Assembly (NCBI RefSeq): GCF_964204645.1
Contig: NC_134036.1
Coordinates: forward strand, 9,961,859 to 10,025,858
DNA from: Tubulanus polymorphus
Lineage: Eukaryota; Animalia; Nemertea
Length of the DNA stretch: 64,000 bases
Direction of reading: 5' to 3'
The position numbers and the translations under genes were made by a program. Positions 1 to 57,847 of the stretch are shown here, in pieces. Positions within the stretch are counted from its first letter, which is position 1, and each line of letters starts with the position of its first letter. The notes below the pieces were generated by a model. That model was not told the origin of the DNA. It searched no databases and was given only the letters and a program-made list of their open reading frames with translations.

Positions 1-2425
1 TATCCAGAGTGCTTAGTAAGAGTTTGGACTTCTCCCTCATTTTTTCAATCATGAAATCTCTTAGTAGCTTCAGATCATTTGTAACCGGAATCAACGGTAC
101 TTTTTTCATCTTTTCTTTGACGATTTTCTTGGTTCCGACAGAATTCACACGGAAGTTCCACTCTGATTCAAAAAGAAGCTTAAATGCTTTGGCTTTTTCA
201 CATTGGGTATTTCCATCTTCTAATCTCAAATACATGCCAATTTTAATCAAAATTACATGGCTCAAAATATTTCCGATATAGCTACACAGCGAAAATGCTT
301 GTTTTTCTTTCGAAAATGCCAATGACTTAGTGGTTTTAACAACTAGGTCAAATTTTGCCGGATCAATCAGTTCATTTAACGTAATGTTGGCTTCATGTTT
401 ACATGCTTCTTGGACTAACCGAGCCAATGTGCGTGCACAAGCACTTACCCGATGCATGTCGTTTAATTTCCTATCATCTCTATCACCGAGCGATTCGACT
501 CGTAGACTGGAATATCTCCTAATAAGTTCGTCATTCATTACAATCTCCTTTATGCCATCGTCTCTCATACGCTCCAGCATTTGCGCTAGAAATTGGTCAC
601 TTTCATTATTATTTCCAAAGACTGCACTTAAGAGTAGTGACCTGCCTCTTCTTACGGCATTCGCTGATCTAGCTTCTTCAGTGCCATTATCTATATCTCT
701 TTGAATAGATAAGTGTCTTAAGGCTGCTTCACATCGCTTAACATGCAACCACAGTGTTGATTTATGTATAAACTTTTTACAGTATTCGCAAGGCAGGTAT
801 TCATGTGGTGGTCCTTGACCTTTATCACGAGACGATCGACGGGCGATAACAAGGTAACCATTTCCTGTTTCGAGCACTTCACAATTGTGGTTAAAATTAC
901 CCTCATTTGCAAGCATATTTAGCTGAAAAATCCGTTCTTTCGACTGCTTCGGCATTAATAGGATGCTGTATACTCTTGGTTGATCTTTGTGAGCAGCGAG
1001 TAAGTGGCGCGATATCTTACTCTTTATTCCTTTTTTACAGAATACACAATAGCTAACTTTATCATATACCTGTTTCTTCCCAGGTTTTACTTTGTTTTTT
1101 TCAGAGATTGATACTTTAGCAGGGGAAGTAGGCTTGACCTTAGCGCAAATACTATGCGACAGGTGATCCATTGATGGTTCTAGTGGGAATTTAGATACAT
1201 CAAGAAAAGGAATAACATCAGATTCAGCATCTGAAATCGAACTGTCTTCCATATCTTCACTGTCATTGGAAAAGTCATCTACGTTAAAATCTGAGTCATT
1301 CTCATCTGAAGGCGAGGAATCCAAGTCGTTGTTATTAAAATCAATCTCATCAGTATCAATGGAGGGTTCTTCTGCAGGGAGTTGAATGGGTTCCACCACA
1401 AGACTTGCTTTGCAGGTGTCAACTGGGAAAGGAAGACATGATTCTTTCGTACAACTGTTTTCACAGGCGTCAACTAAGGAAACTGGACAGGATTCTACCA
1501 AATGACTGTCATCGCAGGGCTCAACTGCAGGAAGGTGACAGGATTCTAGCTTAAGCCGCTTTTTGGAGGGCTCAACTGTGGAAAGTTCACAGGATTCAAC
1601 CAGACGACTGTGTTTGCAGGCCATAGCTGCAGCAAGTTGACAAGAATCTACCATATGACCTTCTCCACAGGCGTCAACGGATCGAACTTGACAATATTCT
1701 ACCATACGACTGTCTTTGCAGGCCGTATCTGCAGGCGATTGACATGATTCTTCCATAGGACTGTCGTTGTAGTCTGCTACTGCGGGAAGGTGACAATAAT
1801 CTACCATACGACTGTCTTTGCAGGCTGTAACTGCAGGCGATGGACACAATTCTACCATACGACTGTTTTTGCAGTCTGCTACTGCTGGAAGCTGATAATA
1901 ATCTACCATACGACTCTCGTTGGAGGTGCAGTCAGCTACTGCTGGAAGCTGACAAAATTCTACCATAGGACTGTCTTTGCAGAGTGTAACTGCAGGCAAT
2001 TGACACAATTCTACCATACAACTGTTTTTGCAGTCCGCTACTACTGGAAGCTGACAATATTCTACCATAGGACTGTCTTTGCAGAGTGTAACTGCAGGCA
2101 ATTGACATGATTCTTCCATACAACTGTCTTTGCAGTCTTCTACTGCTGGACGTTGACAAAATTCTTCCATGCAACAGTACTTGCAGGCCGTAACAGAAGA
2201 AAGTTGACAAGGATCTACCATACAACCTCCTTCGCAGGCGTCAACGGATGGAACTTGACAAGATTCTACCATACGACTGTCTTTGCAGGCTGTAACTGCA
2301 GGCGATTGACACAATTCTACCACACGACTGTTTTTGCCATCTGCTCCTGCTGGACGTTGATAAGGTTCTACCATACGACTGTCTTTATAGGCCGTAACTG
2401 CAGGCGATTGACACAATTCTACCAT
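1..2425 (-). CDS. Open frame running off the window: last repeat units, acidic linker, Zn-finger and helical region of a SET-associated tyrosine recombinase-like protein
   Basis: Absent from the ORF track (no stop in window). Manual translation: YDKVSYCVFCKKGIKSKISRHLLAAH...LANEGNFNHN...YLPCEYCKKFIHKSTLWLHVKRC...FKLLFESEWNFRVNS...VPLIPVTNDLKLLRDF. From recall, this pattern precedes the YR catalytic domain in this family; the catalytic residues themselves are not in the window. Confidence 0.72.
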   Translation of the reverse strand, partial: MVELCQSPAVTAYKDSRMVEPYQRPAGADGKNSRVVELCQSPAVTACKDSRMVESCQVPSVDACEGGCMVDPCQLSSVTACKYCCMEEFCQRPAVEDCKDSCMEESCQLPAVTLCKDSPMVEYCQLPVVADCKNSCMVELCQLPAVTLCKDSPMVEFCQLPAVADCTSNESRMVDYYQLPAVADCKNSRMVELCPSPAVTACKDSRMVDYCHLPAVADYNDSPMEESCQSPADTACKDSRMVEYCQVRSVDACGEGHMVDSCQLAAAMACKHSRLVESCELSTVEPSKKRLKLESCHLPAVEPCDDSHLVESCPVSLVDACENSCTKESCLPFPVDTCKASLVVEPIQLPAEEPSIDTDEIDFNNNDLDSSPSDENDSDFNVDDFSNDSEDMEDSSISDAESDVIPFLDVSKFPLEPSMDHLSHSICAKVKPTSPAKVSISEKNKVKPGKKQVYDKVSYCVFCKKGIKSKISRHLLAAHKDQPRVYSILLMPKQSKERIFQLNMLANEGNFNHNCEVLETGNGYLVIARRSSRDKGQGPPHEYLPCEYCKKFIHKSTLWLHVKRCEAALRHLSIQRDIDNGTEEARSANAVRRGRSLLLSAVFGNNNESDQFLAQMLERMRDDGIKEIVMNDELIRRYSSLRVESLGDRDDRKLNDMHRVSACARTLARLVQEACKHEANITLNELIDPAKFDLVVKTTKSLAFSKEKQAFSLCSYIGNILSHVILIKIGMYLRLEDGNTQCEKAKAFKLLFESEWNFRVNSVGTKKIVKEKMKKVPLIPVTNDLKLLRDFMIEKMREKSKLLLSTLD

Positions 2426-5400
2426 TCGAACTGTTTTTGCCATCTGCTACTGCTGGACGTTGATAAGGTTCTACAATTCGACTGTCTTTGCAATCTGTAA
2501 CTGCAGGCGGTGGACACGATTCTTCCATAGGACATTTTTTGCATGCAGTGACTGCATGAAGCAGATATGATTCTTCCATACGACTGTTTTTGCAGTCTGC
2601 TACTGCTGGAAGCTGACAATATTCTACCATAGGGCTATCTTAGCAGGGTGTAACTGCAGGCAATTGACACAATTCTACCATACAAGTGTTTTTGCAGGCT
2701 GTTACTGCTGGAAGCTGACAATATTCTACCATAGAACTGTCTGTGCAGGCTGTTACTGCAGGCGGTTGACATGATTCTCCCATACGACTGTCTTTGGAGT
2801 CTTCTACTGCTGGACGTTGACAAATTTCTCCCACGGGACTGTCCTTGCAGGCCGTAACAGAAGAAAGTTGACAAGGATCTACCATTCGACCTTCTTCGCA
2901 GGCGTCAACAGATGGAACTTGACAAGATTCTACCATACAACTGTTTTTGCAGGCCGTAACTGCAGGCGATGGACACAATTCTACCATCCGACTGTTTTTG
3001 CATGCAGTAATTGCAGGAAGCTGATATGATTCTTCCATACGACTGTTTTTGCAGTCAGCTACTGATGGAAGTTGACAATATTCTACCATACGACTGTCTT
3101 TGCAGGCTCTAACTGCAGGCCATGGACACAATTCTACCATACGACTGTTTTTGCCATCTGCTACTGCTGGACACTGATAAGGTTCTACCATATGACTGTC
3201 TTTGCAGGCTGTAACTGCAGGCGATGGACACAATTCTACCATATGACTGTTTTTGCCATCTGCTACTGCTGGAAGCTGACAATATTCTACCATAGGACTG
3301 TCTTTGCAGGCTGTAACTGCAGGCAATTGACACAATTCTAACATACAACTGTTTTTGCCATCTGCTACTGCTGGACGTTGATAAGGTTCTACCATACGAC
3401 TGTCTTTGCACGCTGTTACTGCAGGCGATGGACACGATTCTTCCATAGGACTGTTTTTGCATGCAGTAACTGCAGGAAGCTGATATGATTCTTCCATACG
3501 ACTGTTTTTGCAGTTAGCTACTGCTGGAAGTTGACAAAATTCTACCATGCAACTGTCCTTGCAGGCCGTAACAGCAGGAAGTTGACAAGACTCTACCATA
3601 CGACTGTTTTTGCCATCTGCTACTGCTTGACATTGATAAGGTTCTACCATATGACTGTCTTTGCAGGCTGTAACTGCAGGCGATGGACACAATTCTACCA
3701 TATGACTGTTTTTGCCATCTGCTACTGCTGGAAGCTGACAATATTCTACCATAGGACTTTCTTTGCAGGCTGTAACTGCAGGCAATTGAGACAATTCTAA
3801 CATACAACTGTTTTTGCCATCTGCTACTGCTGGACGTTGATAAGGTTCTACCATACGACTGTCTTTGCAGGCTGTTACTGCAGGCGATGGACACGATTCT
3901 TCCATAGGACTGTTTATGCATGCAGTAACTGCAGGAAGCTGATATGATTCTTCCATACGACTGTTTTTGCAGTTAGCTACTGCTGGAAGTTGACAAAATT
4001 CTACCATGCAACTGTCCTTGCAGGCCGTAACAGCAGGAAGTTGACAAGACTCTACCATACGACTGTTTTTGCCATCTGCTACCGCTTGACATTGATAAGG
4101 TTCTACCATACGACTGTCTTTGCAGGCTGTAACTGCAGGCGATGGACACAATTCTATCATACGACTGTTTTTGCCATCTGTTACTGCTGGACGTTGATAA
4201 GGTTCTACTATACGACTGTCTTTGCAGGCTGTTACTGCAGGCGATGGACACGATTCTTCCATACGACTGTTTTTACTGTCAGTAACTGCAGGAAGCTGAT
4301 ATGATTCTTCCATACGACTGTTTTTGCAGTCTGCTACTGCTGTAAGCTGACAATATTCTACCAGAGGACTGTCTGTGCAGGCTGTTACTGCAGGCAATTG
4401 ACACAATTCTACCATACAACTGTTTTTGCAGGCTGTTGCTGCTGGAAGCTGACAATATTCTAACATACGACTGTCTTTGCAGGCTGTAACTGCAGGCAAT
4501 TGACATGATTCTTCCATACGACTGTCTTTGCAGTCAGCTACTGCTGGAAGTTGACAAAATTCTACCATACGACTGTTTTTGCACGCAGTAACTGCAGGAA
4601 GCTGATATGATTCTTCCATACCATTGTCTTTGCAGTCTTCTACTGCTGGAAGTTGACAAAATACAACCAGGTGAATGTCCTTGCAGGCATAAACGGATGG
4701 AAGTCGACAATATTCTACCATAGGACTGTCTTTGCAGGCTCTAACTGCAGCCGGTGGACATGATTCTTCCATACGACTGTTTTTGCCATCTGCTACTGCT
4801 GGACGTTGATAAGGTTCTACCATACGACTGTCTTTGCTGGCTGTTACTGCAGGCGGTGGACACAATTCTTCCATAGGAATGTTTTTGCACGCAGTAACTG
4901 CAGGATGCTGATATGATTCTTCCATACGACTGTTTTTGCAGTCAGCTACTGCTGGAAGTTGACAAAATTCTACCATGCGACTGTCCTTGCAGGCCGTAAC
5001 AGCAGGAAATGGACAAGACTCTACCATACGACTGTTTTTGCCATCTGCTACTGCTGGACATTGATAAGGTTCTACCATACGACTGTTTTTGCAGGCCGTA
5101 ACTGCAAGCGATTGACATGATTCTTCCATACGACTGTCGTTGCAGTCTGCTATTGCTCGAAGCTGACAATATTCTACCATACGACTGGCTTTGCAGGCCG
5201 TAACTGCAGGCGATGGACATGATTCTACCATACAACTGTTTTTGTCAGCTGCTACTGCTGGACATTGATAAGGTTCTACCATACAACTGTCTTTGCAGAC
5301 TGGTACTGCAGGCGGTGGATTAGGTTCTTCCGTAGGACTGTTTTTGCACGCAGAAACTGCAGGAAGCAGATATGATTCTTCCAAACGACTGTTTTTGCAG

Positions 5401-8400
5401 TCAGCTACTGCTGGAAGTTGATTTGTTGAAATTCGACCATGCGACTGTCTTTGCAGGCCGTAACAGCAGGAAGTTGACAAGAATCTACCAAACGACCTTC
5501 TCCACAGGCGTCAACGGAGGGAACTTGACAAGAATCTACTATATGACTGTCTTTGCAGGCGGTAACTGCAGGCGATTGACATGATTCTACCATACGACGG
5601 TTTTTGCAGTCTGCTACTGCTGGACGTTGATAAGGTTCTACCATACAACTGTCTTTGCAGACTGGTACTGCAGGCGATGGATCAGATTATTCCATAGGAC
5701 TGTTTTTGCAGTCTGCTACTGCTGGAAGCTGACAATAATCTACCATACGACTGTTTTTGCACGCAGTAACTGCAGGAAGAAAATATGATTCTTCCATACG
5801 ACTGTTTTTGCAGTCTGCTACTGCTGGAAGCTGACAATATTCTACCATAGGACTGTCTGTGCAGGTTGTAACTGCAGGCGATGGACACAATTCTACCATA
5901 CGACTGTTTTTGCATCTGCTACTGCTGGACGTTGATAAGGTTCTACCATATGACTGTCTTTGCAGGCTCTTACTGCGGGCGGTGGATGGGATTCTTTCAT
6001 AGGACTGTTTTTGCAGTCAGCTTCTGCTGGAAGTTGACAAAATTCGACCATGCGACTGTCTTTGCAGGCCGTAACAGCAGGAAGTTGACAAGAATCTACC
6101 AAACGACCTTCTCCACAGGCGTCAATGGACGGAACTTGACCAGAATCTACCATATGACTGTCTTTGCAGGCCCTAACTGCAGGCGATTGACATGATTCTT
6201 CCATACGACTGTTTTTGCAGTCAGCTACTGCTGGAAGTTGACAATATTCGACCATACGGCTGTCTCTGCAGGCTGTAACTGCAGGCGATGGACACAATTC
6301 TACCATACGACTGTTTTTGCCATCTGCTACTGCTGGACGTTGAAAAGGTTCTACCATAGGACTGTCATTGCAGGCTGTAACTGCAGGCGATTGACACAAT
6401 TCTACCATACGACTGTTTTTGCATGCAGTAACTGTAGGAAGCAGATATGATTCTTCAATACGACTGTTTTTGCAGTCTGCTACTGCTGGAAGCTGACAAT
6501 ATTCTACCATAGGACTGTCTGTGCAGGCTGTTACTGCAGGCGGTTGACATGATTCTTCCATACGACTGTCTGTGCAGTCTTCTACTGCAGGCGGTTGGCA
6601 TGATTCTTCCATACGACTGTCTGTGCAGTCTTCTACTGCAGGCAGTTGACATGATTCTTCCATACGACTGTTTTTGCCATCAGCTACTGCTGGAAGTTGA
6701 CAAAATTCTACCATGCAACTGTCCTTGCAGGCCGTAACAGCAGGAAGTTGACAAGACTCTACCATACGACTGTTTTTGCCATCTGCTACCGCTTGACATT
6801 GATAAGGCTCTACCATACGACTGTCTTTGCAGGCTGTAACTGCAGGCGATGGACACAATTCTACCATATGACTGTTTTTGCAGTCTGCTACTGCTGGAAG
6901 CTGACAATATTCTACCATAGGACTGTCTGTGCAGGCTGTTACTGCAGGCGGTTGACATGATTCTTCCATACGACTGTCTGTGCAGTCTTCTACTGCAGGC
7001 GGTTGACATGATTCTTCCATACGACTGTCTGTGCAGTCTTCTACTGCAGGCAGTTGACATGATTCTTCCATACGACTGTTTTTGCCATCAGCTACTGCTG
7101 GAAGTTGACAAAATTCTACCATGCAACTGTCCTTGCAGGCCGTAACAGCAGGAAGTTGACAAGACTCTACCATACGACTGTTTTTGCCATCTGCTACCGC
7201 TTGACATTGATAAGGCTCTACCATACGACTGTCTTTGCAGGCTGTAACTGCAGGCAATCGACACAATTCTACCATACGACTGTTTTTGCAGTCTGCTACT
7301 GCTGGAAGCTGACAATATTCTACCATAGGACTGTCTGTGCAGGCTGTTACTGCAGGCGGTTGACATGATTCTTCCATACGACTGTCTGTGCAGTCTTCTA
7401 CTGCAGGCGGTTGACATGATTCTTCCATACGACTGTTTTTGCCATCAGCTACTGCTGGAAGTTGACAAAATTCTACCATGCAACTGTCCTTGCAGGCCGT
7501 AACAGCAGGAAGTTGACAAGACTCTACCATACGACTGTTTTTGCCATCTGCTACCGCTTGACATTGATAAGGCTCTACCATACGACTGTCTTTGCAGGCT
7601 GTAACTGAAGGCGATGGACACAATTCTACCATACGACTGTTTTTGCAGTCTGCTACTGCTGGAAGCTGACAATATTCTACCATAGGACTGTCTGTGCAGG
7701 CTGTTACTGCAGGCGGTTGACATGATTCTTCCATACGACTGTCTGTGCAGTCTTCTACTGCAGGAAGTTGACATGATTCTTCCATACGACTGTTTTTGCC
7801 ATCAGCTACTGCTGGAAGTTGACAAAATTCTACCATGCAACTGTCCTTGCAGGCCGTAACAGCAGGAAGTTGACAAGACTCTACCATACGACTGTTTTTG
7901 CCATCTGCTACCGCTTGACATTGATAAGGCTCTACCATACGACTGTCTTTGCAGGCTGTAACTGAAGGCGATGGACACAATTCTACCATACGACTGTTTT
8001 TGCAGTCTGCTACTGCTGGAAGCTGACAATATTCTACCATAGGACTGTCTGTGCAGGCTGTTACTGCAGGCGGTTGACATGATTCTTCCATACGACTGTC
8101 TGTGCAGTCTTCTACTGCAGGCAATTGACATGATTCTTCCATACGACTGTTTTTGCCATCAGCTACTGCTGGAAGTTGACAAAATTCTACCATGCAACTG
8201 TCCTTGCAGGCCGTAACAGCAGGAAGTTGACAAGACTCTACCATACGACTGTTTTTGCCATCTGCTACCGCTTGACATTGATAAGGCTCTACCATACGAC
8301 TGTCTTTGCAGGCTGTAACTGCAGGCGATGGACACAATTCTACCATACGACTGTTTTTGCAGTCTGCTACTGCTGGAAGCTGACAATATTCTACCATAGG

Positions 8401-11400
8401 ACTGTCTGTGCAGGCTGTTACTGCAGGCGGTTGACATGATTCTTCCATACGACTGTCTGTGCAGTCTTCTACTGCAGGCGGTTGACATGATTCTTCCATA
8501 CGACTGTTTTTGCCATCAGCTACTGCTGGAAGTTGACAAAATTCTACCATGCAACTGTCCTTGCAGGCCGTCACAGCAGGAAGTTGACAAGACTCTACCA
8601 TACGACTGTTTTTGCCATCTGCTACCGCTTGACATTGATAAGGCTCTACCATACAACTTTCTTTGCAGGCTGTAACTGCAGGCGATCGACACAATTCTAC
8701 CATACGACTGTTTTTGCAGTCTGCTACTGCTGGAAGCTGACAATATTCTACCATAGGACTGTCTGTGCAGGCTGTTACTGCAGGCGGTTGACATGATTCT
8801 TCCATACGACTGTCTGTGCAGTCTTCTACTGCAGGCGGTTGACATGATTCTTCCATACGACTGTTTTTGCCATCAGCTACTGCTGTAAGTTGACAAAATT
8901 CTACCATGCAACTGTCCTTGCAGGCCGTAACAACATGAAGTTGACAAGACTCTACCATACGACTGTTTTTGCCATCTGCTACCGCTTGACATTGATAAGG
9001 CTCTACCATACGACTGTCTGTGCAGGCTGTAACTGAAGGCGATGGACACAATTCTACCATACGACTGTTTTTGCAGTCTGCTACTGCTGGAAGCTGACAA
9101 TATTCTACCATAGGACTGTCTGTGCAGGCTGTTACTGCAGGCGGTTGACATGATTCTTCCATACGACTGTCTGTGCAGTCTTCTACTGCAGGCAGTTGAC
9201 ATGATTCTTCCATACGACTGTTTTTGCCATCAGCTACTGCTGGAAGTTGACAAAATTCTACCATGCAACTGTCCTTGCAGGCCGTAACAGCAGGAAGTTG
9301 ACAAGACTCTTCCATACGACTGTTTTTGCCATCTGCTACCGCTTGACATTGATAAGGCTCTACCATACGACTGTCTTTGCAGGCTGTAACTGCAGGCGAT
9401 GGACACAATTCTACCATACGACTGTTTTTGCAGTCTGCTACTGCTGGAAGCTGACAATATTCTACCATAGGACTGTCTGTGCAGGCTGTTACTGCAGGCG
9501 GTTGACATGATTCTTCCCTACGACTGTCTGTGCAGTCTTCTACTGCAGGCAGTTGACATGATTCTTCCATACGACTGTTTTTGCCATCAGCTACTGCGGG
9601 AAGTTGACAAAATTCTACCATGCAACTGTCCTTGCAGGCCGTAACAGCAGGGAGTTGACAAGACTCTACCATACGACTGTTTTTGCCATCTGCTACCGCT
9701 TGACATTGATAAGGCTCTACCATACGACTGTCTTTGCAGGCTGTAACTGCAGGCGATGGACACAATTCTACCATACGACTGTTTTTGCAGTCTGCTACTG
9801 CTGGAAGCTGACAATATTCTACCATAGGACTGTCTGTGCAGGCTGTTACTGCAGGCGGTTGACATGATTCTTCAATAGAACCGTCTTTGAAGGCCATAAC
9901 CGCAGGAAGATGACAAGATTCTTCCATACGACCTTCTCCACATGCGTCAACAGAAAGAATGTGAGAAGATTCAATCAGACTGTTTTTGCAGGTCTCAGCC
10001 AAAACATCGGGGAGTTTGCAGGATTTTTCCATACAACTACTTTTGCAGTCTGCTCCTGCTGGAAGTTGACGAGATTCTACCATACCACTTGCGCCACAGG
10101 CGCGAACTGACAGAAGTTGACAGGATTCAACCCTTAAACCGTTTTTGCAGGCTTCAACAGCGGGAAGATAAGAGGATTCAACCATATGACCTTCTCTCCA
10201 GGCGTCGACAGAAGTTGACAGGATTCAACTTTTAAACTGTTTTTGCAGTCTACTACTGCTGGACGTTGATAAGGTTCTACCATACGACTGTCTTTGCAGG
10301 CCGTAACTGCAAGAGATTGACATGATTCTTCCATACGACTGTTTTTGCAGTCTGCTACTGCTGGAAGCTGACAATATTCTACCATACGACTGTTTTTGCC
10401 ATCTGCTACTGCTGGACGTTGAAAAGGTTCTACCATACGACTGTCTTTGCAATCTGTAACTGCAGGCGATTGACACAATTCTACCATACGACTGTTTTTG
10501 CAGTCTTCTACTGCTGGAAGCTGACATGATTCTTCCATACGACGGTCTGTGCAGGCTGTTACTGCAGGCGGTTGACATGATTCTTCCATATGACTGTCTG
10601 TGCAGTCTGCTACTGCTGGAAGCTGACAATATTCTACCATAGGACTGTCTGTGCAGGCTGTTACTGCAGGCGGTTGACATGATTCTTCCATACGACGGTG
10701 TGTGCAGGCTGTTACTGCAGGCGGTTGACATGATTCTTCCATACGACTGTTTTTGCATGCAGTAACTGTAGGAAGCAGATATGATTCTTCCATACGACTG
10801 TCTTTGCAGTCAGCTACTGCTGGAAACTGACAATATTCTACCATAGGACTGTCTGTGCAGGCTGTTACTGCAGGCGGTTGACATGATTCTTCCATACGAC
10901 TGTCTTTGCAGTCTGCTACTGCTGGAAGCTGACAATATTCTACCATAGGATTGTCTGTGCAGTCTGTTACTGCAGGCGGTTGACATGATTCTTCCATACG
11001 ACTGTTTTTGCAGTCTGCTACTGCTGGAAGCTGACAATATTCTACCATAGGACTGTCTGTGCAGGCTGTTACTGCAGGCGGTTGACATGATTCTTCCATA
11101 CGACTGTCTGTGCAGTCTGTTACTGCAGGCGGTTGACATGATTCTTCAATAGTATCGTCTTTGAAGGCCATAACCGCACGAAGATGACAAGATTCTACCA
11201 TACGACCTTCTCCACATGCGTTAACAGAAAGAATGTGAGAAGATTCAATCAGACTGTTTTTGCAGGTCTCAGCCAAAACATCGGGGAGTTCGCAGGATTT
11301 TTCCATACAACTACTTTTGCAGTCTGCTCCTGCTGGGTGTTGACAAGATTCTACCATACCACTTACTCCACAGGCGCGAACTGACAGAAGTTGACAGGAT

Positions 11401-11520
11401 TCAACCCTTAAACCGTTTTTGCAGGCTTCAACAGCGGGAAGATAAGAGGATTCAACCATATGACCTTCTCTCCAGGCGTCGACGGACGGACTGTTTTTAC
11501 AGGCCGTAACTGCAGAATCT
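1450..11520 (-). repeat. Coding 51-bp minisatellite, roughly 195 units, encoding 17-aa Cys-rich repeats (approx. MVEYCQLPAVADCKNSR)
   Basis: 51-nt periodicity of ...ctaccatacgactgt...; long minus ORFs 2640-5480, 5893-10185 and 10134-11459; higher-order periods of 357, 408 and 459 bp. Confidence 0.97.
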
Positions 11521-12816
11521 TGGCGGGATTGTACTGTATCATTCTCTCTGGAGGGCTGAACCGAGAAACAAACTCTTGGTGGTCCCTCTACCTATCAATA
11601 TTACAGATATCAAAATGCATAAGAAATCGGGTAGTAGTTTAAGTGTACGTACGTACATGGCAGTGAATAAATAATTAAAAGGTTATAGTAAGCAATTATA
11701 TGGATTTCCCAAGTTCCCAGGGGGTCCACGGGCCTCGAGTTTGTATAATTCATTAACACAAGGAAGGAGGCGTAGACCTTGGTTTCCTGAAACTGTGAAA
11801 CTCCTTCAATGTATTGTTATACGGTCCTGCAAGCAGCTGTCAATTTGCTGACTGAAAACCCCCTCAGACAATCACTGTTCGGACTTCGAAATCCGGGTGA
11901 ACACATTTTTTGCAAATGGTGAATGGATGATCTTGTTTTGGGAAAATGCATACAGACGGCAGGTTGATAGCTTCATTAGTTTCTAGTTCTCACATCTGAT
12001 GCTGCAACTAATATGGTAAACTCGATATGATAAATAGTCTATTATAAACCAGACTGTTCCTTGTAAAATCGTTATATATTTCTATATGAAACTGATTTAC
12101 AGACATGTTGGGTCTTTCAAATTAAGTATTTAGATATCTATATGTTCCGCATACATAATTACCATAGTAAATATAGGCCTATACAGTCAAACCCTGTAAG
12201 GACGATTCGGGTTTTAACAAAACCTTAGAGATACGATGAAGTACATAAGGCCCCAAGAGGCAAAATGTCAACATTCGCTTTTCATAAACGATGCAATCTG
12301 TGGGTTACATTCGTCAAAGAATACACTCCTGGCACAATTGTGTTTTACACAGTACAATTGTGTTTTATAAGTACCGTAACAGTACTACCGAAGACAGGGA
12401 GATGGCAAGAACGAATACCTCGGATCAATATTTTGCATTTGTCATGGAATGTGGAATAAAATTAATTTGAATTTAGTGTAATTTTTTCCAATAAAATAAA
12501 ACTCAATTTGATTATTTTTGTTCAATAATATAAAAATTGACTTGGATTTTATATTTTTTGCCGTAGGTTGAATTTGCAATTCGAGTACATAGAAAATCTG
12601 TATAACAAGTTTCCACTGTATTGGAAGCATCAAACTCATATGCACTACATGAGAGATCAATACTCAATTGGACCGCAATATTGGTAGTCAATGATGTTTA
12701 ATAGCCCAGTATTTTCCATATCAGAGATAGAAATAACCATGGGAATTTGAAAAAAAGTCCTTTTGGGTCCCTCAAACTGCGGATTTCCCTATGTTCAACA
12801 ACTAATACATTCCCTA

Positions 12817-13093
12817 TGCCTTTTTTTAATAGCTTGGTTTACGGGATAGACCAATTAAAATATTCTTTTGGCGGAGGAAATAAAAAAAAAATTCCCTCAG
12901 TGAGATAAAATCACTTTTTGAAGGAAGAGGGAACTGTCGATAGGGCAATATACCTATGTCCAAACACAAATGATTCTTGGAAAGTTCTAATTTTGCACAC
13001 TGTGATAAAAAAAGAAGCTTGTTCCACAGACGGGAATAAAAACTTTATTTGACTTTTCTTCAAATTTAGGGAGCCAAGCTATTAAAAAAGGCC
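12817..13093. mobile_element. Small MITE (PIF/Harbinger-ISL2EU-like ends) in an intron
   Basis: Inverted ends (t/g)gcctttttt(t)aatagcttgg ... ccaagctattaaaaaaggcc. Confidence 0.55.
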
Positions 13094-13824
13094 TTATTAT
13101 AGATTGTGCAGATTTATTGGGTCCCTAAGACTGAGACTAATAAATACATATTGGGCCCCTGGACTGTAGGAATCAAATACTTTAGATCAATCCTCCGAAC
13201 ACAATGCACAATTTATGCTGAATTAAATTAAAACTCTACAATACAAACTAGATCACGTAACTGGGTTGATTGTGCACGTGTGTGGTGCGTGTTTGTGAAC
13301 GTGATCTTTTGACAAACCTTCAGTTCAAATTAGTAAGTGAGACTGTAAAGGCTAAAACATTTGTCACAAAATAGTTGAAAAGATGTGTTTTTTACCTTGC
13401 TATAACTTCTTTTCACAGAACCACGAAGACTTTGTCTTCCTTAAAACAAACAAACAAACAAACAAACAAATAAACAAATGCGTGTATCAATGAAGTATAT
13501 ACCAGGGCCTGTTTGTGTAGCCCTAGTTAATGAACCAAGATCATGAGGCACCAGTGAAGTATTTTTACACATGTCACCTTGTTAGCAAAAGTTCTGGTAA
13601 TACTTCTGAATGTTTTCTTTTACCTATTGGCCAAGATAAATAGTACAGCCATGATTTGTCTTTAAATTGTTGCCTTTGTGGATTTTTGATATTGAGATAT
13701 AAAACAAGACAAGTTTTAAGTATGGCAATTCTGTATGTTGGCTGCATGAGACATATCAATCTGAGGTTGCACTGACACATGCCCATTAGAGAATAAACAT
13801 TTACTCGTCAGACATTATACATAC

Positions 13825-16418
13825 CACAGGAACTACTTTTTCGCCAAGGTAGATTTGGCGCGTTATAGTTGTATCTTATCTCATCACCGATGTTGATGTC
13901 ACCTTTAGCCATTATCGCAAGACAAATGGTCTGCTTGTGTTCGACAGCAACTACCTTCGAATTTTCTGTCTCACGAGGCCAGGCGTCGTTGACAAACTTC
14001 CCCAAACTATTGATATTCGTGGCATCAATACTAGGAGAAAGAACTCATTTCGTTTAAGATATATGGGGAAATTGTCAATTAAATAATTTACTTGACATAA
14101 CTATAGGGCCAAAAATGTCATACAAAACAAGAAAAAATATTTATTCCGGGGTATATTGGTCAATGATTCTAAGGTTGGTAAGCTTTTGTTATGATAAAAC
14201 AAATATTACACGATGCTACGAACCTCTAAATAAATCGCTCATGGGCAAAGTGGTTTACCTTCGAAACCGTAGCTTGTTTGGCAATGGCATTACCTATAAA
14301 AACTATTTTGATTTCTTGAGTTCAAAGTTCTATTTTGTATTTAGGGTTTCTGCTTCTTTCGCACTTGTACGCTTTCCAGTGCGATATGAACCAGTTAGGC
14401 AGAAACCCGTTATCACTGCTTTGCAGCTAGGCCTATATTTTATTTTATCTTTTTCAAAGAGTAATTTTGTAGTCAAATAAGGCCAAAAAACATACATACA
14501 TTTTTTTAAGCCCAACGCACACGGCAAAACATTTGTTTCGCCGAAACAGAAAACACGTTTTTCGTAAAACGCTTTGCCCGCAAACGATAAAACGTTCAAC
14601 GCACATGTGACGAAAAACGTTTTCGACTACACAAAACGTTTTTCGCAAATCAAGCAGTGCTTGAATCGTGAAAAACGATTTTTGCTCGCGAAAATCGTTT
14701 TTCAGTTCGGTGTTTTGTGCTTTGCCTCCCCCGCACATGGCATAACAAAAAACATCGAAAACGTTTTCGGTGCCGTGTGCGTTGGGCTTTACAGTCCATG
14801 TCCAAAATTTGGTAGGGTACAGGTAGGTAGGGAAACTATTTTATACTTTGAGAAAAATATTTTTCACGACAAATAAAAATATTTGAAAAATATTTAGATT
14901 AAAAATTCATATGATATCACCAATCAGAGGACGGCTGAATATTGAAATTTCTGGCAGCCTCTTCCAATGTAGGGCCGGAGAAGTTACTGGTACCGCAAAA
15001 TATCAGTGTATGTAAGTGGATCGTTTTAAACCCCGGATTTTACCTCTTAAATATTGAGCTCTACTTATACACCGAGAAAAACAATAGTTTGCTGCTTAGT
15101 ATTAGGTCTCAAGAAATTACAATTTATTACAAATGGTACCAAATTTAAAACACAGTGCTCATCTTTAGCTAAAACAGTTTAAATGATTATTCATGATAAA
15201 TTATCATTACTTTATAAGAAAAATAACTTATATTTAAACACCACTCTAAACAATGCACGTGCGGTAGCAAGCAGCTTACAGTATCGCTATGTAAGAGTGT
15301 ACACTGTCCGAGCTTGTGTGTGTGTAACACTAACAGTCTACTTATTGATTATAACTCCCACGCTTGAAGTGAATGTGAACATTTGCTCACACTTTTATGG
15401 TCAATGAAAACAAACTATGGGTATTAAATGAAACAATACCTATGGCGTATAAAAATATATTCTTACAAAACTATATTAGAAGTGTCTTTAAAATTGTATT
15501 CTGTCCAATGACGGATGGATGATGGAGAAAAAGTAAACAGGCAATGGCCTGCTGAGGTGTAAGTACCACATTAGGCTAAAACAAGCAGCAGCGGTCTTCT
15601 TAAATCGGAAATGCAACACCTTACAAACTTACATACCATAATTTGCGTTTCTTGAAATTGAAAAAATATAAAAACGATCCTAAATCGTTAGAATATGTTG
15701 AGAATCTTTTTTCTCCTTCATCTAGGGAACATAGTTCACCATAGTACTCCAGGAGAAAATCCCCTTTACGGAATTTTCTTTTTGAGAAAATACCAAAACC
15801 TGAAATAATATAACATGGTCAATTTAAAACATCCACTGTTTAATTTAAACCAACCTTTGAGCAAATTATCGAGGAATGGTCATTACTACGTTATCAACAA
15901 TCATACGATTCCAAGACACCTCGCATGAATAAGAGCCCCAAGCAGCACTACGGCCAGCTGTTCATATTCGCTTTTCATAAATGATGCATGTAGGTTATAT
16001 TTATCAAAATACACTCCCCGCTCAATATAATTCATAAAGTACAATTGTTTTTATTAGTACCACAGACAGGAGGATGGCAGGAACGAATACCTTGGATCAA
16101 TCTTGCAATTCGAGCACTTAGCTAATAAGCACATCATCTAGGCTATCTGTTTTGTGAAAAAGCACCATTATGTTTCTAAAATCAATTTTTTCACTAAAAA
16201 GAGCTACGAGCACTATCAGTTAATAACCATGGGTTTATGTTCGCTCATTCAGCACCCCTTTTCAAACCATACAATCAGCTTTCAGTATAGAGTTGTAACC
16301 TATAACTTTTGCCTTAAAAAAATCTATAGATCTTACCTATGTCAGCGCTAATCCATTTTTTTTCGAACCATTGTGGATCTCTAAGATGTTCCCGGTAGCA
16401 GATTACTGGTACTGTTTC
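13825..16418 (-). CDS. SET domain exons (KMT5A/PR-Set7-like lysine methyltransferase fold)
   Basis: SET motifs GFGIF, GDFLLEYYGEL, YFF..CIDAT, GKFVND (NH>ND variant) and DINIGDEIRYNY, reconstructed across three exons with matching phases. Confidence 0.88.
14509..14788. mobile_element. 280-bp PIF/Harbinger (Tourist-like) MITE
   Basis: TIRs agcccaacgcacacggca / tgccgtgtgcgttgggct; TTA on both flanks (14506-14508, 14789-14791); internal aaaacg repeats. Confidence 0.85.
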
Positions 16419-16989
16419 CTTGAAAAACATTACAGGCCTAAATCATTATGGGATTACAACACATAGCGGCCACCACCTATTTCTTCCATATATTCGTGGA
16501 AACATGACATGGTGTGCTAAAGTCTGAGGGTGAGCTACACATTACTTGGTTTTCTAATTTTTGTCAGGAGGTATGCAGTTTTAAAATCTGATGAGAACTA
16601 AAGCTAAGCTCAGGGTGACAAGAAATTTTCCGGTTGAAAAATTTGCAGAACGATCCAACAAGACGATTGGGTCATAAGTGGTACTGAGCTTACCTTAAGT
16701 AAGGCCTATCTTTGTAGGGACCTTGCACTATACAGGTCACATGTTCATCAAAAAGATACAATGTTAACACTAGACGCTTACTATTTCTTAAGCCTGACAA
16801 AAAGAACAACTAACTGGGTCATTGCAGTCAAATATGAACAACTATCTCATTAAAAGAATTCTTAAGATTCTTCATGGGCCTCTCTAAGGGTGTTAGAAAA
16901 GTGGTAAAGTTATATATTTGAATACATACCCCGACTTGACGTCTTCTGCTAGTTCGTTTCATTATCTGCAAAAAATGCTCAGATGAATG

Positions 16990-19078
16990 AGAGAATCAAT
17001 AGTCCACCAGTAACAAACCTAAACAGTTTCTGTATATGGCATGCGATATAATTAACAACATGAAAATATTGGGTCTACCACACTGTGGGTTTACTGTGTA
17101 ATAACTAATATATTATATAGGGCCTACAGTAGATTTCGACCGAATTCTTGGGCCATCGAACTGTGGCGTTCCTGTGTGTTAATAACTAATTATTTTCATA
17201 TAGGAGTTTCCCCTAACGCAGTAGGTTTCCTCAAAAATATCCCAAATGATAGATTTCAACCATATTCTTGAGTCTAACAAAATGAGCCTTATCAACTTCC
17301 TTATGAATAATTAAACGACAGTAATTCATCTCTTATGATGACTTGGTCTCCGAGCATAAAAAAAATAGATTGAAATAAATGTTCACCTCGATTATTAAAA
17401 TCAAAATGGTAGTTGATAAACCAAAATATGCACCATGCAAAAAACATACACACAAACAATGATTGCTAAGAATTCCTGTGTGTCTGGCATGTTTCACCCT
17501 GGAATAGAAATAACTGAAACTATACTAGTATATGAATAAGTTGGAGCCTTTACAATTTTTCTCCAATGGCTGCATTTAAATTTTTTTCTAGAATGGCCAG
17601 GGTATTAATTAGTACAGTTTATCGTCAGAAGAGGATAAGGAATGATTAGAGTTAAATAGGGAAAATCAAATTTCAAATAAAGGAAATGGAGTTAGGTCAG
17701 ACTCTATAGCCAGAATCAACAGTCCACCAATAACAAACCTAAGTTCAGAAACTGTGTAGGTATATGGCATCTGATATATTTAACCACATATATGAAAATA
17801 TTGGGTCTACCACATTGTGGGTTTACTGAGTAATTACTGATATATTTCACATGCTCAATTCCCCTCAAACTGTTCCCATAAAAATATTCCATTTGGTAAA
17901 TTTGAACCAAATTCTTGGGTCTTATTTAAGGAGCCTTATTAACTTGCTAGTGAATAATTAAACGAGACAGATAGTAGGCTTATTGATTGGTTAACCCATT
18001 TGTCTAGAGAATGAACACTACATGTCCATACAAGCTTTGTGGCTATTGCTCAGTGAACAGTGATTCATCTCTTACGATGACTTGGTCTCCCAGCATAAAA
18101 ATAGATTGAAATAAATGTACCTCGGTTATTAAAATGGTGATTGATACACCAAAATATGCACCATACAAAAACACACACACAAACAATAATAGCAAAGAAT
18201 TCCTGTGTGTCTGGCATGTTTCTACCTAGAAAAGAAACAACTGAAACTACACTAGTAGGCCTACATGAATAAGTTTAAGGCTTTTCAGATATTTCTCCAA
18301 TGTCTTCATTTCAATTTTTTCTAGAACGGCCAGTGTAATAGCCCTCTGATACAGTGCAGGAAGAGGATAAGGAATACTTGGAGTTAAATATGAACTGTAC
18401 AATTGAAAATAAGGAAAATGGATTTAGAGATACAGGTCACACTCTATAGCCAGAATCAAAGTAGTCCACCAATAACAAACTTAAACAGATACTATTGAAG
18501 TATTTGGCATGCAACATATTCAACGACATATCTGAAAATATTGGGTCTACCGCACTGTGGGTTTACTGTGTAATTCCTAATATATTTCAATAATAGTCAG
18601 AACAAACCTAAACAGATACTAATGAAGTATAGGCCTATGGCATGCAACATATTTAAAGAAAAATCTGAAAATATTGGGTCTACCGCACTGTGGATTTACT
18701 GTGTAATTCCTAATATATTTCAATAATAGCCAGAATCAATAGTCAACCAATAACAAACCTAAACAGATACTAATGAAGTATAGGCCTATGACATGCAACA
18801 TAGGCCTATTTAACAACATATATGTGAAAATATTGGGTCTACCGCACTATGGGTTTACTGTGTAATTCCTAATATATTTCAATAGGCCTTATAGCCAAAG
18901 TCATTAGTCCACCAATAACAAACCGAAACAGATACTAATGAAGTATAGGCCTATGACATGCAACATAGGCCATATTTAACAACATATGTGAAAATATTGG
19001 GTCTACCGCACTATGGGTTTACTGTGTAATTACTAATATATTTCAATAATAGCCAGAATCAATAGTCCACCAATAACA
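16990..19078. repeat. Two ~720-740-bp tandem units followed by ~4 shorter (~130-170 bp) units sharing a core
   Basis: agaatcaa(t/c)agtccaccaataacaaac...gaaaatattgggtctacc(a/g)cact(g/a)tggg recurs at ~16993, 17712, 18452, 18600, 18732 and 18900. Confidence 0.85.
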
Positions 19079-19597
19079 ATGGACACCAAAAAAATCATAC
19101 AGCCGCCATCTTGTGTCCAATCGACCCTATTTTTCTTATGCTAATGTACCATGGTGGATACAAACATGTGAAAGATCAAGATAATTGATTAAAGAATTTT
19201 CAAAATTTCCCATGAAAAACTTGTGTAGGCCTATACTGATTTTGATGAGCACCAATGGCTGCCAGTCCGCCATCTTGATTTGGATCAGGTCAGTATTCGG
19301 GCTGAAGATGTTAGGGTAGATACATGTATAAATCAAAGATCAAGACAATCCATTAAAGCGTCTTCAAAACTTCCCAAAATAACCAGATTCCAATGGACGA
19401 AAAGATGTATCTAGGGTAGATACATGTATAAATGTGACGCAAAAACACACAGCCTGATAGCTGGGAAATCCCCATAAAAACTAATGTTGGCTACCTAGCA
19501 ACAAAGACCTGTGAAACAATGAGGTAACCTGTGTCATAGGCCGTCGTTATTGGTTGCAATTACGTCACAATACAATATACAATAGGCCTATTTCTGT

Positions 19598-23170: not shown

Positions 23171-26100
23171 CGTATTGGTCTCGTAGCAGACAGCATTTTA
23201 AAGTATGCTGGGCTAGATGGTGTAGGCTTATTTGAATGGACAAGGATCGTGTGCCCCGGAGGAACCATTGAAACATTGATGGAAGGTAATTTCTCGGTTC
23301 AGTACTGATTTATATTGTTCATTTTCATTGGGTTACTGATTAGTTGTATATTACAGAATTGAAAAAGGTGAAGATGCTGAATGTGGAACAACTAATCGTC
23401 AATGTTGGAACAAATAATATGACGCGTGATGTCCCGCTTGAGATTGTTCTGCGAAGACACGTTGAATTAATTCGATTGTTGCTCTATAAATGTACTGGGA
23501 CCATCATTGTACCAGCTCTTTTTCCTCGATGTGATGAGTAAGTATCAAGAATGGATTTTTCTTGAAGTACTATATTTATCATCGATGTAATGATTTTTAA
23601 ATTTCTTTCTTTTTTAAAGTTTCGATGCTGACACAAATATATTTCATTACAATGAAATGCTTCACCGCGAATGCTTTACACTTGGTGTAAAGTTCGTTGA
23701 TTTTCACTTCTCAAGAGATCTCCTTTCACCGTAAGTAATCGTTTAATTTTAATAAGCCCAGTAGGTTATGTGCATTTTTTCGCGATTTAAACTAACTTGT
23801 TTTTTTCTAAATTTTGTGATCTAGGACTGACTTGTTACACCCCAGCCGTAAGGGAAATCAGTTCATAAATAACAGGATAATGGAACTACTGCTATTGAAA
23901 AATGAAGATGAAATGTACGTAGAATTGCATTATTTTATCCAATTACCAGGTATGCAAACTACATAAATTTTATGATTGTACTGGAAATAATGAATGATTC
24001 TTAATCAGGTGCCCTCAATACTTTCCATATGAGATTGAAAAGATGCAAAGAAGTAGAGCAGTCCATCGACGAAAGGTAATCATTTAGCATTGATATCCTA
24101 GAAAATGAATGATTTGCAATTAGTTTTTATAACTTGAATACGAAACCACGTTATTCAAAATCCTTGCATTGAATTAATGAATCATATTGATAGCTGATAG
24201 CAAAAAACAAATTGAAGGATGATCAAGCAAGAGCATGGGATGATTCAACAATAGTGGTAAAGTTGTTTTCCTAAGTGATTTGTACGTGATTTATCTTTAT
24301 AAAGTTAGATATATTTTAACAGTTTTTTTGTATCCTTCAATCCAGTATAGCAGTTTTGACGTTGCGCATCATACAAGGAAACAATTCTGTTGTGAAGATC
24401 AAAGAGCCTTTTTCACATTCGACCAGGTACATATCATCTCAAGAACTTATGATTTAATATTAGTTTGGTCACTTTTATTTCACAATTACCTAAAGGCTGT
24501 GCATGCACAAATCTGTCTTTTTTTTCCAGTACATGACTAAAATTGATGTGGCTGGTGTTGCTATTTGTTTAAAGCCTAAATTATTTACTCCTTTTTATCA
24601 GACTAAGAACGTGAGTAATATGTTTCTCGAAATGAAATTATAGAAATTCATTGGTATTGGTATGATTTATGCTGTAAAGCTTTGTTTTCATATTCAGGGA
24701 TGCTACAATAGAAGTTGTCACAATACTAAAAGATTTAACAGAAAAAGGAAGTCAGTGGAACATGTAAGTTTGATGCCCTTTCTGCGAGACGCGGGTTCAT
24801 TTTTGTTATTTTTGCTTAGATGTTGAAGCAAAAACAGATTAATGTGCTCTTCCACATTAGGTTATTCATCCACAGACGGATCCTGCTGACTCGACATGTT
24901 TTTGCGGAGTTGAATTCACCAATTGGAAAGATCTTCTAGACCATGTTAGTTTAAACCATACTGAAATGTAAGTACAACATAATTCAATTAATTTAGTACC
25001 TACAAATCTAAATGACTTAATGCAAATGACTCAGAGATACCCATGTTTTATGTTAGGCCTATATGGGTAATTTCATACTCTATCTATTGATATGTCTAAA
25101 AAAAGTGAGTTGATAATGTGTATTTCAGGCGGACAATGGAGGAAGAAGGAAAGGACGCGGCTTGTGACAATTTCTCGGAAGGAACGATAGAGGAAGCAGA
25201 AAAGATGCAGGAAGATAGTTCGAAAGAAAGGATAGAAAGATTAAAGATGCAGGAAGATAGCTGGATGGAAAACAAAAAACAGCTAAGTATCACAGGTGGT
25301 GGAGGTATCGAACCAATCATAATTGATGATAGTGATGAGAATGATTCTGATGATGAACATGTATGTAGAAGAAATTTTAGTTACAATCCAACAGAAATGT
25401 GCCTCAATGACTATCAGTTTTTGAAAATTCCTCCTGTTATGCCATCAAAGGTCACGTCATTCAGAATTTGTGACATGTCTAATTCATGTCATTTGGCTGA
25501 TGATGCCCCCACTATGCCCCACAAAAATCAGTTGGAGGACATAAAAGCACAGATGCAGTCAAGGATTGTCCGTGACCCTTCCATTAATATCCATGTGAGA
25601 CTCGATACAGGCTGCTATTCTATTGATCAGATTAATAGGTTTCTTTTCTTACATTATGCTAAAACCAAACAACAAGATCTTTTTGCCATGAATCTTTGGG
25701 TAAATAGTAAGCCTTTAAGCCCCACTGATTCAGTCGATTGGGAACAGATTCAAGCATTTTCAAATATGCTCTTTTCCTTAAAACCCTCTCAACAATTTCC
25801 AGTTGGTAATAATAATAGCGTATCTGTATCAGAACTTCAGACGATGACTAATCAAAAATGGTTTGAAGGATCTGTGTTAAATGCTTTTGCATCTATGATA
25901 AATGAACAGTACTGTAATATTCATGCATTTATGATGCCACTAACATTTGATGCTAAGAAATATGTTTTAAATTTATATAAAAGATTCAGTCCTAATCCAC
26001 TCATAAGTTGTGATGAACTAATTTTTTTCCTGCATGTTGGCACCCAAAACGATTTCGTATTTTTAAATTCTTATGGACATGTTGTTGCCAATCATTATGC

Positions 26101-34988: not shown

Positions 34989-35106
<118 letters not shown>

Positions 35107-38091: not shown

Positions 38092-38500
38092 TACACGTGT
38101 AATTGTAAATGAAAATACACGTGTATTTCAAGTACACGTGTAAAATTGGCCCAATTTTACACGTGTACTTTATCCCAATTACACGTGTACTTCATCCTAA
38201 TTACACGTGTACTTCATCCAAATTACACGTGTATTACACGTGTACTTCATCCTTATTACACGTGTTTTTCATCTTGTATTACACGTGTACTTCATCCAAA
38301 TTACACGTGTATTACACGTATACTTCATCCTAATTACACGTGTACTTCATCCTTATTACACGTGTACTTCATCCAAATTACACGTGTATTACACGTGTAC
38401 TTCATCCTTATTACACGTGTTTTTCATCTTGTATTACACGTGTACTTTATCCTAATTACATGTGTATTTCATCCAATATTACACGTGTCTTACACGTGTA
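38092..38500. repeat. Left subterminal array of palindromic TACACGTGTA (matching right array at ~43525-43741)
   Basis: About 20 copies of the acacgtgt core. Confidence 0.92.
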
Positions 38501-38957
38501 CTTCATGCTAAATACAGGTGTCTTCAATTGCTATTTTTTGTTGAATTCAAATCAAACCACCATGTGAGGACCATCTCCTTAATCCATGTGCTGTTTAGAA
38601 TGAACGTACTCAAGAGATTCACATTTTCCATACTAACTGATTTATTCATCTTCATAAATTTTATAAATCTTTGAGTAATGGCATGTCTTATGTTGGCCTC
38701 TTTCGCACCCTTCTCCTTTTGACATTGTTCTGAAATGATAACCATTTGAAAAAAATTAAGCAAAAGTATAAAATGATTTCTTTACCCGGATAAATAATTC
38801 AACTTCAGCTGCTTGGGATGATGATTGAATTCTGTAGCTTTTTCTAAGAGTCTTCTGCATATAACAGTTTTTGCACTCTTCAATGACTTGATTTTAAGCC
38901 ATATGGTGAAATGCTTGACAATCTGGAAATTTCAATGTTCAACGCCACCTGATGAAA

Positions 38958-50358: not shown

Positions 50359-50384
50359 AAATCCCTTAAATGGTTATTAACTTA

Positions 50385-57817: not shown

Positions 57818-57847
57818 TTATATATCCTTAATTTTTACTTTATATTT

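What the first reader, a model, noticed from the sequence alone, without database searches (positions are those of the whole stretch)
1..16962. SET methyltransferase domain joined to a recombinase-type protein through a ~3,300-aa Cys-rich repeat
Seen: five small exons rebuild a KMT5A-like SET domain. They splice in phase into an exon of more than 11.5 kb holding ~195 17-aa repeats, then in frame into a Zn-finger/helical region. Recalled: this region belongs to animal SET-plus-tyrosine-recombinase (Crypton-like) elements, where I remember SET commonly lying C-terminal and linkers being short. Inference: a mobile recombinase with an N-terminal chromatin writer on a very long repetitive tether, possibly to mark its own locus or target.
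Basis: partly seen in the sequence, partly recalled or inferred. Interest (0 to 1): 0.75.

Follow-up and report, generated by a model that had tools for sequence, protein, structure and literature searches.

The report
Broken histone-marking recombinase transposon gene
This is a damaged copy of a gene type found across many animals, likely carried by a jumping gene, in which a predicted histone-marking enzyme is joined by a long repetitive spacer to a predicted DNA cut-and-rejoin enzyme; the spacer here is unusually long but carries six breaks, so the giant protein would not be made from this copy.

Summary
The parts are real; the intact fusion is not. Five GT-AG exons rebuild a KMT5A-like SET domain and splice in phase into about 190-196 Cys-rich 17-aa repeats. 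But the 11.6-kb "exon" holds four frameshifts (net +1) and two stops, so the SET frame ends after 661 aa. The 1-1156 peptide is two zinc fingers plus a tyrosine-recombinase core-binding fold; the catalytic domain lies just outside the window and is shown only in relatives. N-terminal SET plus a long repeat linker is the family norm, not the exception: oyster, brittle star and a metagenomic contig show it, each with an unrelated repeat unit. Near-identical dispersed copies in oyster, sea cucumber and coral point to a Crypton-type transposon. Old repeat variants are enriched for silent changes and young ones are neutral, so the array was coding and then decayed. Distinctive here is only linker length (about 3,480 codons versus about 200-1,000). 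The wider lead: published "expanded H4K20 methyltransferases" switched on at genome activation in Hydractinia include SET-then-recombinase genes and may be these elements.

The parts
16930..16962 (-). Predicted coding exon 1 (ATG, basic N-terminus)
   Evidence: GT donor, phase 0; aligns with N-termini of family SETs; no RNA
16337..16418 (-). Predicted exon 2, start of SET
   Evidence: AG/GT, in phase; aligned to homologs; 1-base deletion at 16356 in 10 of 18 reads of run X5
15637..15799 (-). Exon 3, SET N-half (GxG and EYxG motifs)
   Evidence: Pfam SET E 8e-4; best PDB hits KMT5A E 4e-7; ends at the same phase-2 position as the matching exon of L015
13825..14030 (-). Exon 4, SET C-half; N-D in place of the N-H motif, YxY retained
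   Evidence: Pfam SET E 4.5e-3; alignment
13396..13439 (-). Predicted 44-nt exon 5, restores phase 0
   Evidence: AG/GT and phase; no RNA
1..11591 (-). Large exon (linker, acidic patch, Zn fingers, core-binding domain); runs off the window; broken
   Evidence: relatives keep linker to first catalytic Arg in one open frame
1486..11480 (-). 51-nt (17-aa) Cys-rich tandem array, about 190-196 units
6500..9900 (-). Young 7-unit (357-nt) higher-order block, nearly homogeneous, no lesions
   Evidence: nearest-neighbour distance 0.31 nt per unit; 1.2 private changes per kb
9828..10212 (-). 385-nt duplicate (96.6%) of the array start 11102-11486; first frameshift lies at its junction
10195..10241 (-). 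Frameshift 1 (47-nt unit); SET frame stops at 10136-10134
5909..5958 (-). Frameshift 2 (50-nt unit)
5687..5689 (-). In-register stop codon
5445..5500 (-). Frameshift 3 (56-nt unit)
2640..2642 (-). In-register stop codon
2435..2486 (-). Frameshift 4 (52-nt unit)
1200..1360 (-). Acidic Asp/Ser/Glu patch; relatives have one before the Zn fingers too
   Evidence: translation; P0003, P0174, L015
560..1156 (-). Two predicted Cys/His zinc-finger units and helices
   Evidence: conserved Cys/His columns; model pLDDT 92.5; weak Zn-finger hits
120..559 (-). Tyrosine-recombinase core-binding fold (model residues about 200-345)
   Evidence: VIA-align: Brujita integrase Z 8.6, rmsd 3.1, 102 aligned; lambda Int 7.5; Ndc10 6.9; XerD 6.7; Cre 6.6
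16992..19079 (.). Upstream non-coding arrays (about 740-nt and 133-165-nt units); may belong to the element's 5' region
   Evidence: membership not shown

Best explanation
This is a broken, low-copy copy of the single gene of a likely Crypton-type DNA transposon, whose intact product is predicted to run SET domain, long repeat linker, two zinc fingers, then tyrosine recombinase. SHOWN here: exon phases, SET likeness, the array and its six lesions, the core-binding fold, and the same order with a recombinase fold in relatives. INFERRED for intact relatives: the zinc fingers and core-binding domain grip the element's ends and the recombinase excises and reinserts it, as proposed for Cryptons (PMC3212892); the SET domain, leashed to that DNA-bound end by a floppy linker, would methylate nearby nucleosomes (H4K20 by likeness to KMT5A) and help keep the element transcribed. 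The linker's sequence seems free (unrelated units in each relative) while its reading frame was kept, so it grows by unequal exchange; here it ran to about 3,480 codons, and then the copy lost function and decayed.
For: Recombinase: 8 long homologs at 41-51% identity, 2,934 representatives at E<=1e-3; the window's helical part has tyrosine-recombinase core-binding domains as 6 of its top 7 rows (the other is the Crypton-derived Ndc10); the model of oyster P0003 matches XerH Z 10.3 over 273 residues, and 9 of its top 10 rows are recombinases/integrases. Conserved in the 70-row alignment: R587 >=90%, R712 18 of 21, H738 16 of 19, Y747 15 of 17 rows with residues. Architecture: oyster P0174 SET 52-152, about 1,000-aa linker of tandem repeats; brittle star P0149 SET 48-158, 817-aa linker; L015 has SET C-half, 98 copies of an 18-nt unit, Zn fingers, core-binding domain and first Arg in one open frame of 1,483 codons, then intact catalytic exons. 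23 of 43 upstream regions >=200 aa hold tandem duplications, 0 of 43 shuffles. Mobility in relatives: oyster models 99-100% identical on contigs of 4 different chromosome-scale lengths, SET and recombinase models on each; >=90% clusters on 5 chromosome-scale contig lengths in sea cucumber and several in Acropora. Coding then decay: shared codon variants 22 of 55 silent versus 21-29% expected (p 0.001-0.05), private variants 9 silent, 38 missense, 2 stop of 49 (Fisher p 0.019). Independent null alleles in other runs: stop at 492 (5 of 22 reads), 1-base deletions at 890 (4 of 35) and 16356 (10 of 18), insertions at 314 and 172.
Against: The catalytic domain of this copy lies outside the window (it stops about 27 codons before the first Arg) and could not be read. 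No element ends or target sites were found. Depth over the gene equals the upstream flank in run X1 (109-139) and is only about twice it in X5 (about 20-29 versus 11-17), so no recent burst is seen in this species. The His of HxxR is Thr in 17 of 20 rows. Foldseek gave no match at E<=0.001 for either model, and Z 8.6 in a helical region is middling. Pfam Phage_integrase hit only 1 of the 80 homologs scanned. The SET has N-D for N-H and several fish relatives lost the YxY motif. Some oyster and coral models split SET from recombinase. The lesions inside the array were not checked against reads. Methylation, its substrate and any action in cis are untested.
Confidence: 0.72

Rival explanations
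1. The gene is intact in life and the six lesions are assembly errors in a hard-to-polish array, so a roughly 4,300-aa SET-repeat-recombinase protein exists.
For: Run X1 contigs differ from the window at 6 substitutions and 2 one-base gaps in about 6.2 kb outside the array, some shared by most X5 reads, so one-base errors are plausible; two of the four frameshifts are single-base changes in short runs. All six lesions lie in the array, none in the SET exons or the last 815 codons.
Against: A 4-base loss, a 5-base gain and two nonsense substitutions are not typical long-read errors (own knowledge); private changes are substitution-dominated and rarest in the most homogeneous block (1.2 per kb versus 3.5-23.5 elsewhere), the opposite of a polishing failure; other haplotypes carry their own null alleles. 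The array is 80% of the coding length, so clustering there is expected about 1 time in 4 (own arithmetic).
Confidence: 0.07
2. The locus works as a short SET-only gene: the intact exons give a 661-aa SET-plus-repeat protein (or a shorter isoform), and the recombinase half is separately expressed or dispensable.
For: SET frame is unbroken to 10136; 302-315-aa SET-only models exist in oyster, a 278-aa one in coral, and 10 of the 24 Hydractinia genes listed are under 450 aa apart from the canonical one.
Against: An exon-2 frameshift is in 10 of 18 X5 reads; a stop 1.4 kb into an 11.6-kb exon with later introns should trigger nonsense-mediated decay (own knowledge); short models may only reflect short reads failing to bridge repeats; L015 shows SET and recombinase in one frame.
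Confidence: 0.11
3. A domesticated, non-mobile host chromatin gene (like the Crypton-derived ZMYM/QRICH1 genes) whose recombinase fold only binds DNA; this is a dead paralog or allele.
For: Low copy number here; fish relatives sit in tandem arrays, in several models fused to ZMYM4-type domains, and P0101 has degenerate catalytic motifs; 9 of 24 X5 variants in the Zn-finger/core-binding part are silent (21% expected, p 0.05).
Against: The closest relatives keep the Arg, Arg, His, Tyr set and are dispersed as near-identical copies; several independent null alleles segregate; the neighbourhood is mostly mobile DNA.
Confidence: 0.1

Closest known systems
Crypton DNA transposons (Kojima and Jurka 2011, PMC3212892; passages read)
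   Same: Intron-containing eukaryotic gene built on a tyrosine recombinase; accessory domains vary; some relatives carry a C48 peptidase as oomycete Cryptons do; dispersed near-identical copies in relatives.
   Different: N-terminal KMT5A-like SET, long repeat linker and two Zn fingers; no GCR1_C or DUF3504 hit on the recombinase part; HxxR His replaced; termini untested.
CryptonV (Repbase; named in PMC8869645 and PMC5753468 passages)
   Same: Animal, including cnidarian, recombinase-encoding DNA transposons; possibly the same group (recalled lead only).
   Different: Described there only as microsatellite-targeting; no domain description or sequence was available, so identity is untested.
N-terminal-SET 'predicted H4K20 methyltransferases' of Hydractinia, Hydra and sea urchin (PMC10368294; section 9 and S8 Table read)
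   Same: SETD8-like SET first; long forms mostly 1,000-1,500 aa; 3 of 24 listed Hydractinia genes have DNA_BRE_C after the SET; multi-copy, some near-identical.
   Different: The section read treats them as novel KMT5A genes, not transposons; their sequences were not obtained, so homology is inferred from architecture; none listed exceeds 2,652 aa.
KMT5A/SETD8
   Same: Best structural-database match of exon 3; the tyrosines in EYxG and YxY are kept.
   Different: SET is N-terminal and fused; N-H motif is N-D; substrate untested.
SET-carrying HarbingerS and MuDR of Phytophthora; VANDAL anti-silencing (passage in PMC12730594)
   Same: Transposon carrying a chromatin-modifying or anti-silencing protein.
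   Different: DDE transposases in oomycetes and plants, not tyrosine recombinases; no tether described in the passage read.

Membership tests
Crypton superfamily | Encodes a tyrosine recombinase | tested here: met
   Core-binding fold in the window; full fold in the 49%-identical oyster relative; catalytic exons follow the match in most long JGI loci. The catalytic domain of this copy itself is outside the window.
Crypton superfamily | Catalytic R-H-R-Y residues | tested here: inconclusive
   Relatives keep Arg, Arg, later His and Tyr; the HxxR His is Thr in 17 of 20 rows. Not readable for this copy.
Crypton superfamily | No terminal inverted or long direct repeats; 4-6-bp terminal direct repeats | not testable with these tools
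   One end is outside the window, no genome is held, no second copy to align.
Crypton superfamily | Dispersed multiple copies | tested here: inconclusive
   Met for oyster, sea cucumber and coral relatives; this species shows about 1-2 times flank depth.
Crypton superfamily | No reverse transcriptase (unlike DIRS/Ngaro) | tested here: inconclusive
   No RT Pfam hit in 80 homologs scanned; sequence left of the window unseen; JGI flanks not scanned for RT.
CryptonV | Sequence clade of Repbase CryptonV and insertion into microsatellites | not testable with these tools
   No Repbase sequences; 3 papers mention the name without domains.
CryptonA / DUF3504 | Recombinase matches DUF3504 | tested here: not met
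   DUF3504 hits occur only in separate C-terminal parts of four fish models, outside the family's recombinase region.
KMT5A/SETD8 orthologs | SET domain closest to KMT5A | tested here: met
   Top 14 PDB rows for exon 3 are KMT5A; exon 4 alone found none.
KMT5A/SETD8 orthologs | Short protein with C-terminal SET | tested here: not met
   SET is N-terminal, followed by linker.
KMT5A/SETD8 orthologs | H4K20 monomethylation | not testable with these tools
   Needs an enzyme assay.

The most novel reading that the evidence does not exclude
An animal-wide family of self-marking Crypton transposons: a KMT5A-derived writer leashed to the recombinase by a tether that each lineage rebuilds from a new repeat, methylating chromatin around the element's own DNA. 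The 'expanded H4K20 methyltransferases' switched on at genome activation in Hydractinia and sea urchin embryos are these transposons waking up, not a host innovation; this window shows the tether can grow past 3,400 residues under selection for frame.
Probability: 0.35. Interest if true: 0.75.

Novelty: new variant of a known kind. Interest (0 to 1): 0.45.

Why it matters
This copy alone is a pseudogene with a record-long linker. The family matters more: a recombinase transposon that carries its own histone writer would be an animal counterpart of plant and oomycete anti-silencing elements. It would also change the reading of KMT5A 'gene expansions' reported in cnidarian and sea urchin embryos. 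Oyster, sea cucumber and Hydractinia copies make both ideas directly testable.

Tried and rejected
No whole genome held, so no extension left of the window and no direct copy count. No RNA holder listed; run X7 laid nothing: neither says anything on expression. Repeat homologs: none at E<=1e-5 among 7,995 candidates of 596-2,000 aa (weak evidence). PDB sequence searches for the recombinase found nothing significant (a Xer-like row at E 0.22); Foldseek none at E<=0.001. No relative in viral contigs: a viral origin got no support. Protein Atlas unavailable. A search meant to reach the sea-urchin genes of the S8 Table returned none of them among 27 hits, so that link is untested. Earlier-findings look-ups by sequence and place were empty. 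A recalled 2019 review of transposon diversity is not held. Rejected: repeat is intronic (silent-site excess, in-phase acceptor, open-frame relatives); metal-binding role for the Cys repeat (Cys kept in only 135 and 141 of 179 units; relatives use Cys-poor units); link to the ORFs at 25109-30798 (opposite strand, transposase-like motifs of another class). The shuffle control for linker repeats is weak, and many ENA/JGI/Logan 'proteins' are single-exon ORFs whose upstream part may include non-coding DNA.

Full report
Observation. Five minus-strand exons (16962-16930, 16418-16337, 15799-15637, 14030-13825, 13439-13396) join through GT-AG introns in phases 0/1/2/1/0 to an acceptor at 11591 and read without a stop for 630 codons. 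Exons 3 and 4 each hit Pfam SET weakly; exon 3 matches KMT5A best (E 4e-7), exon 4 alone matches no SET structure. The array has a 51-nt unit, 190.4 copies by TRF, about 196 with degenerate ends. From the acceptor to the conserved domain is 3,478 codons.

The large exon is not open. Four units are 47, 50, 56 and 52 nt long and two carry stops; the net shift is +1. The SET frame ends after 661 aa. The first break lies at the junction of a 385-nt, 96.6%-identical duplicate of the array start.

History of the array. Of 179 full-length units, codon variants shared by 3 or more units are silent in 22 of 55 cases, against 21-29% expected depending on transition bias (p 0.001-0.05). Variants private to one unit are 9 silent, 38 missense and 2 stop, the neutral pattern (Fisher p 0.019). 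Each lesion occurs once, whereas an in-frame 54-nt variant is duplicated. Private changes are rarest in the young 7-unit block (1.2 per kb, against 3.5-23.5 elsewhere). I read this as growth under selection for coding, then decay. Independent null alleles appear in other runs: a stop at 492 (5 of 22 X5 reads), deletions at 890 (4 of 35) and 16356 (10 of 18), insertions at 314 and 172.

The downstream domain. Window 2-1156 finds 8 long proteins at 41-51% identity and 2,934 representatives at E<=1e-3. Its model (pLDDT 92.5) matches tyrosine-recombinase core-binding domains over residues about 200-345: Brujita integrase Z 8.6 (rmsd 3.1, 102 aligned), lambda Int 7.5, XerD 6.7, Cre 6.6. Foldseek found nothing significant. 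The oyster relative P0003 (49% identical) continues into a full recombinase fold: XerH Z 10.3 over 273 residues; Foldseek's top rows are XerA and Cre but at E>=0.015. Relatives conserve R587, R712, H738 and Y747; the HxxR His is mostly Thr. The window ends about 27 codons before the first Arg; contigs of X1-X3 run 598 bases further but their letters are not shown.

Architecture is a family trait. Of 154 homologs held at that point, 8 have a SET, and in all 8 a SET precedes a Zn-finger/core-binding unit; most of the rest are single-exon fragments. Four more of 25 later hits (sea cucumber, corals) have SET within the first 180 residues. Oyster P0174 has about 1,000 linker residues, mostly tandem repeat; brittle star P0149 has 817 acidic ones. 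Among 40 metagenomic loci, L015 carries SET C-half, 98 copies of an 18-nt unit, Zn fingers, core-binding domain and first Arg in one 1,483-codon open frame, shares a SET intron position with the window, and has intact catalytic exons; L013 has at least 864 open upstream codons with 23-aa repeats. SET hits upstream were seen in 3 of 40 loci; most are too short to tell. The repeat units are unrelated to each other, and the window's unit has no detected homolog.

Mobility. Oyster models are 99-100% identical and lie on contigs of four chromosome-scale lengths, with SET and recombinase models on each. Sea cucumber and Acropora clusters are likewise spread. In this species depth over the gene equals the upstream flank in X1 and is about double in X5: one or two copies, no burst. 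Ends were not found.

Literature. Eight searches found no paper describing a SET-recombinase transposon in animals; Repbase Reports and most subscription journals are not in the library, and the family may be CryptonV or CryptonH there (recalled, untested). PMC10368294 (passages, section 9, supplement search and S8 Table) reports up to 65 KMT5A-like genes in Hydractinia and 61 in sea urchin, mostly N-terminal SET, many activated at genome activation; 3 of 24 listed Hydractinia genes carry DNA_BRE_C after the SET. Figures and sequences were not seen. PMC3212892, PMC8869645, PMC5753468, PMC12730594, PMC13465315 and PMC12153100 were read as passages only.

Mechanism. Shown: domain order, folds, lesions, dispersed copies in relatives. 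Inferred: end binding and excision/reinsertion by the recombinase as proposed for Cryptons; methylation of nearby nucleosomes by the tethered SET, probably H4K20, favouring the element's own expression; a linker free in sequence and length but held in frame. The N-D for N-H change in the SET (shared with several relatives) leaves its activity open.

Verdict. A real but broken member of a widespread, thinly described SET-linker-recombinase family. Interest 0.45, carried mainly by the family-level lead.

Noticed in passing
window 56077-64000 (-): AT-rich (22-25% GC) Polinton/Maverick-like stretch: A32-type ATPase (56077-56685), chromo-like ORF, rve integrase (57233-57817), weak major-capsid hit (58327-58983); several ORFs look cut short.
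   Followed up: partly
window 25109-30798 (+): Two overlapping long ORFs (1,088 and 818 aa, one frame change) with a C-terminal PHD finger; by eye Ulp1-like, CxFH and SWIM-like motifs suggest a MuDR-type transposon (labels recalled; Pfam did not confirm them).
   Followed up: partly
window 52254-53483 (+): Pao/BEL retrotransposon fragment (Peptidase_A17, E 4e-42).
   Followed up: no
window 49849-51505 (-): Broken ORFs resembling a CACTA-type transposase by eye (recalled; no Pfam hit).
   Followed up: no
window 12846-13073, 14260-15210, 15830-16130: High-copy repeats inside the SET introns (depth up to about 520 in X5 against about 25 for exons); 12273-12432 and 15966-16104 share a short repeat.
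   Followed up: no
window 314, 38077-38526, 43524-43756: The insertion seen at 314 in runs X5, X2 and X3 contains the same short palindromic motif that builds the arrays at 38.1 and 43.5 kb.
   Followed up: no
P0101, P0102, P0103, P0131, P0150, P0160, P0063, P0079 (fish RefSeq models among them): Tandem arrays of SET-ZnF-recombinase units, several fused in gene models to ZMYM4-type domains; P0101 has degenerate catalytic motifs. Possibly a domesticated branch.
   Followed up: partly
P0105, P0183, P0188, L013:1-3840: Linker regions of some relatives hold extra domains: OTU, C48 peptidase, DBF zinc finger; Hydractinia/Hydra models list a kinase. The linker may be a domain-capture site.
   Followed up: no
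window 34992-35101: Perfect (TA)55 microsatellite; no link to the element shown.
   Followed up: no
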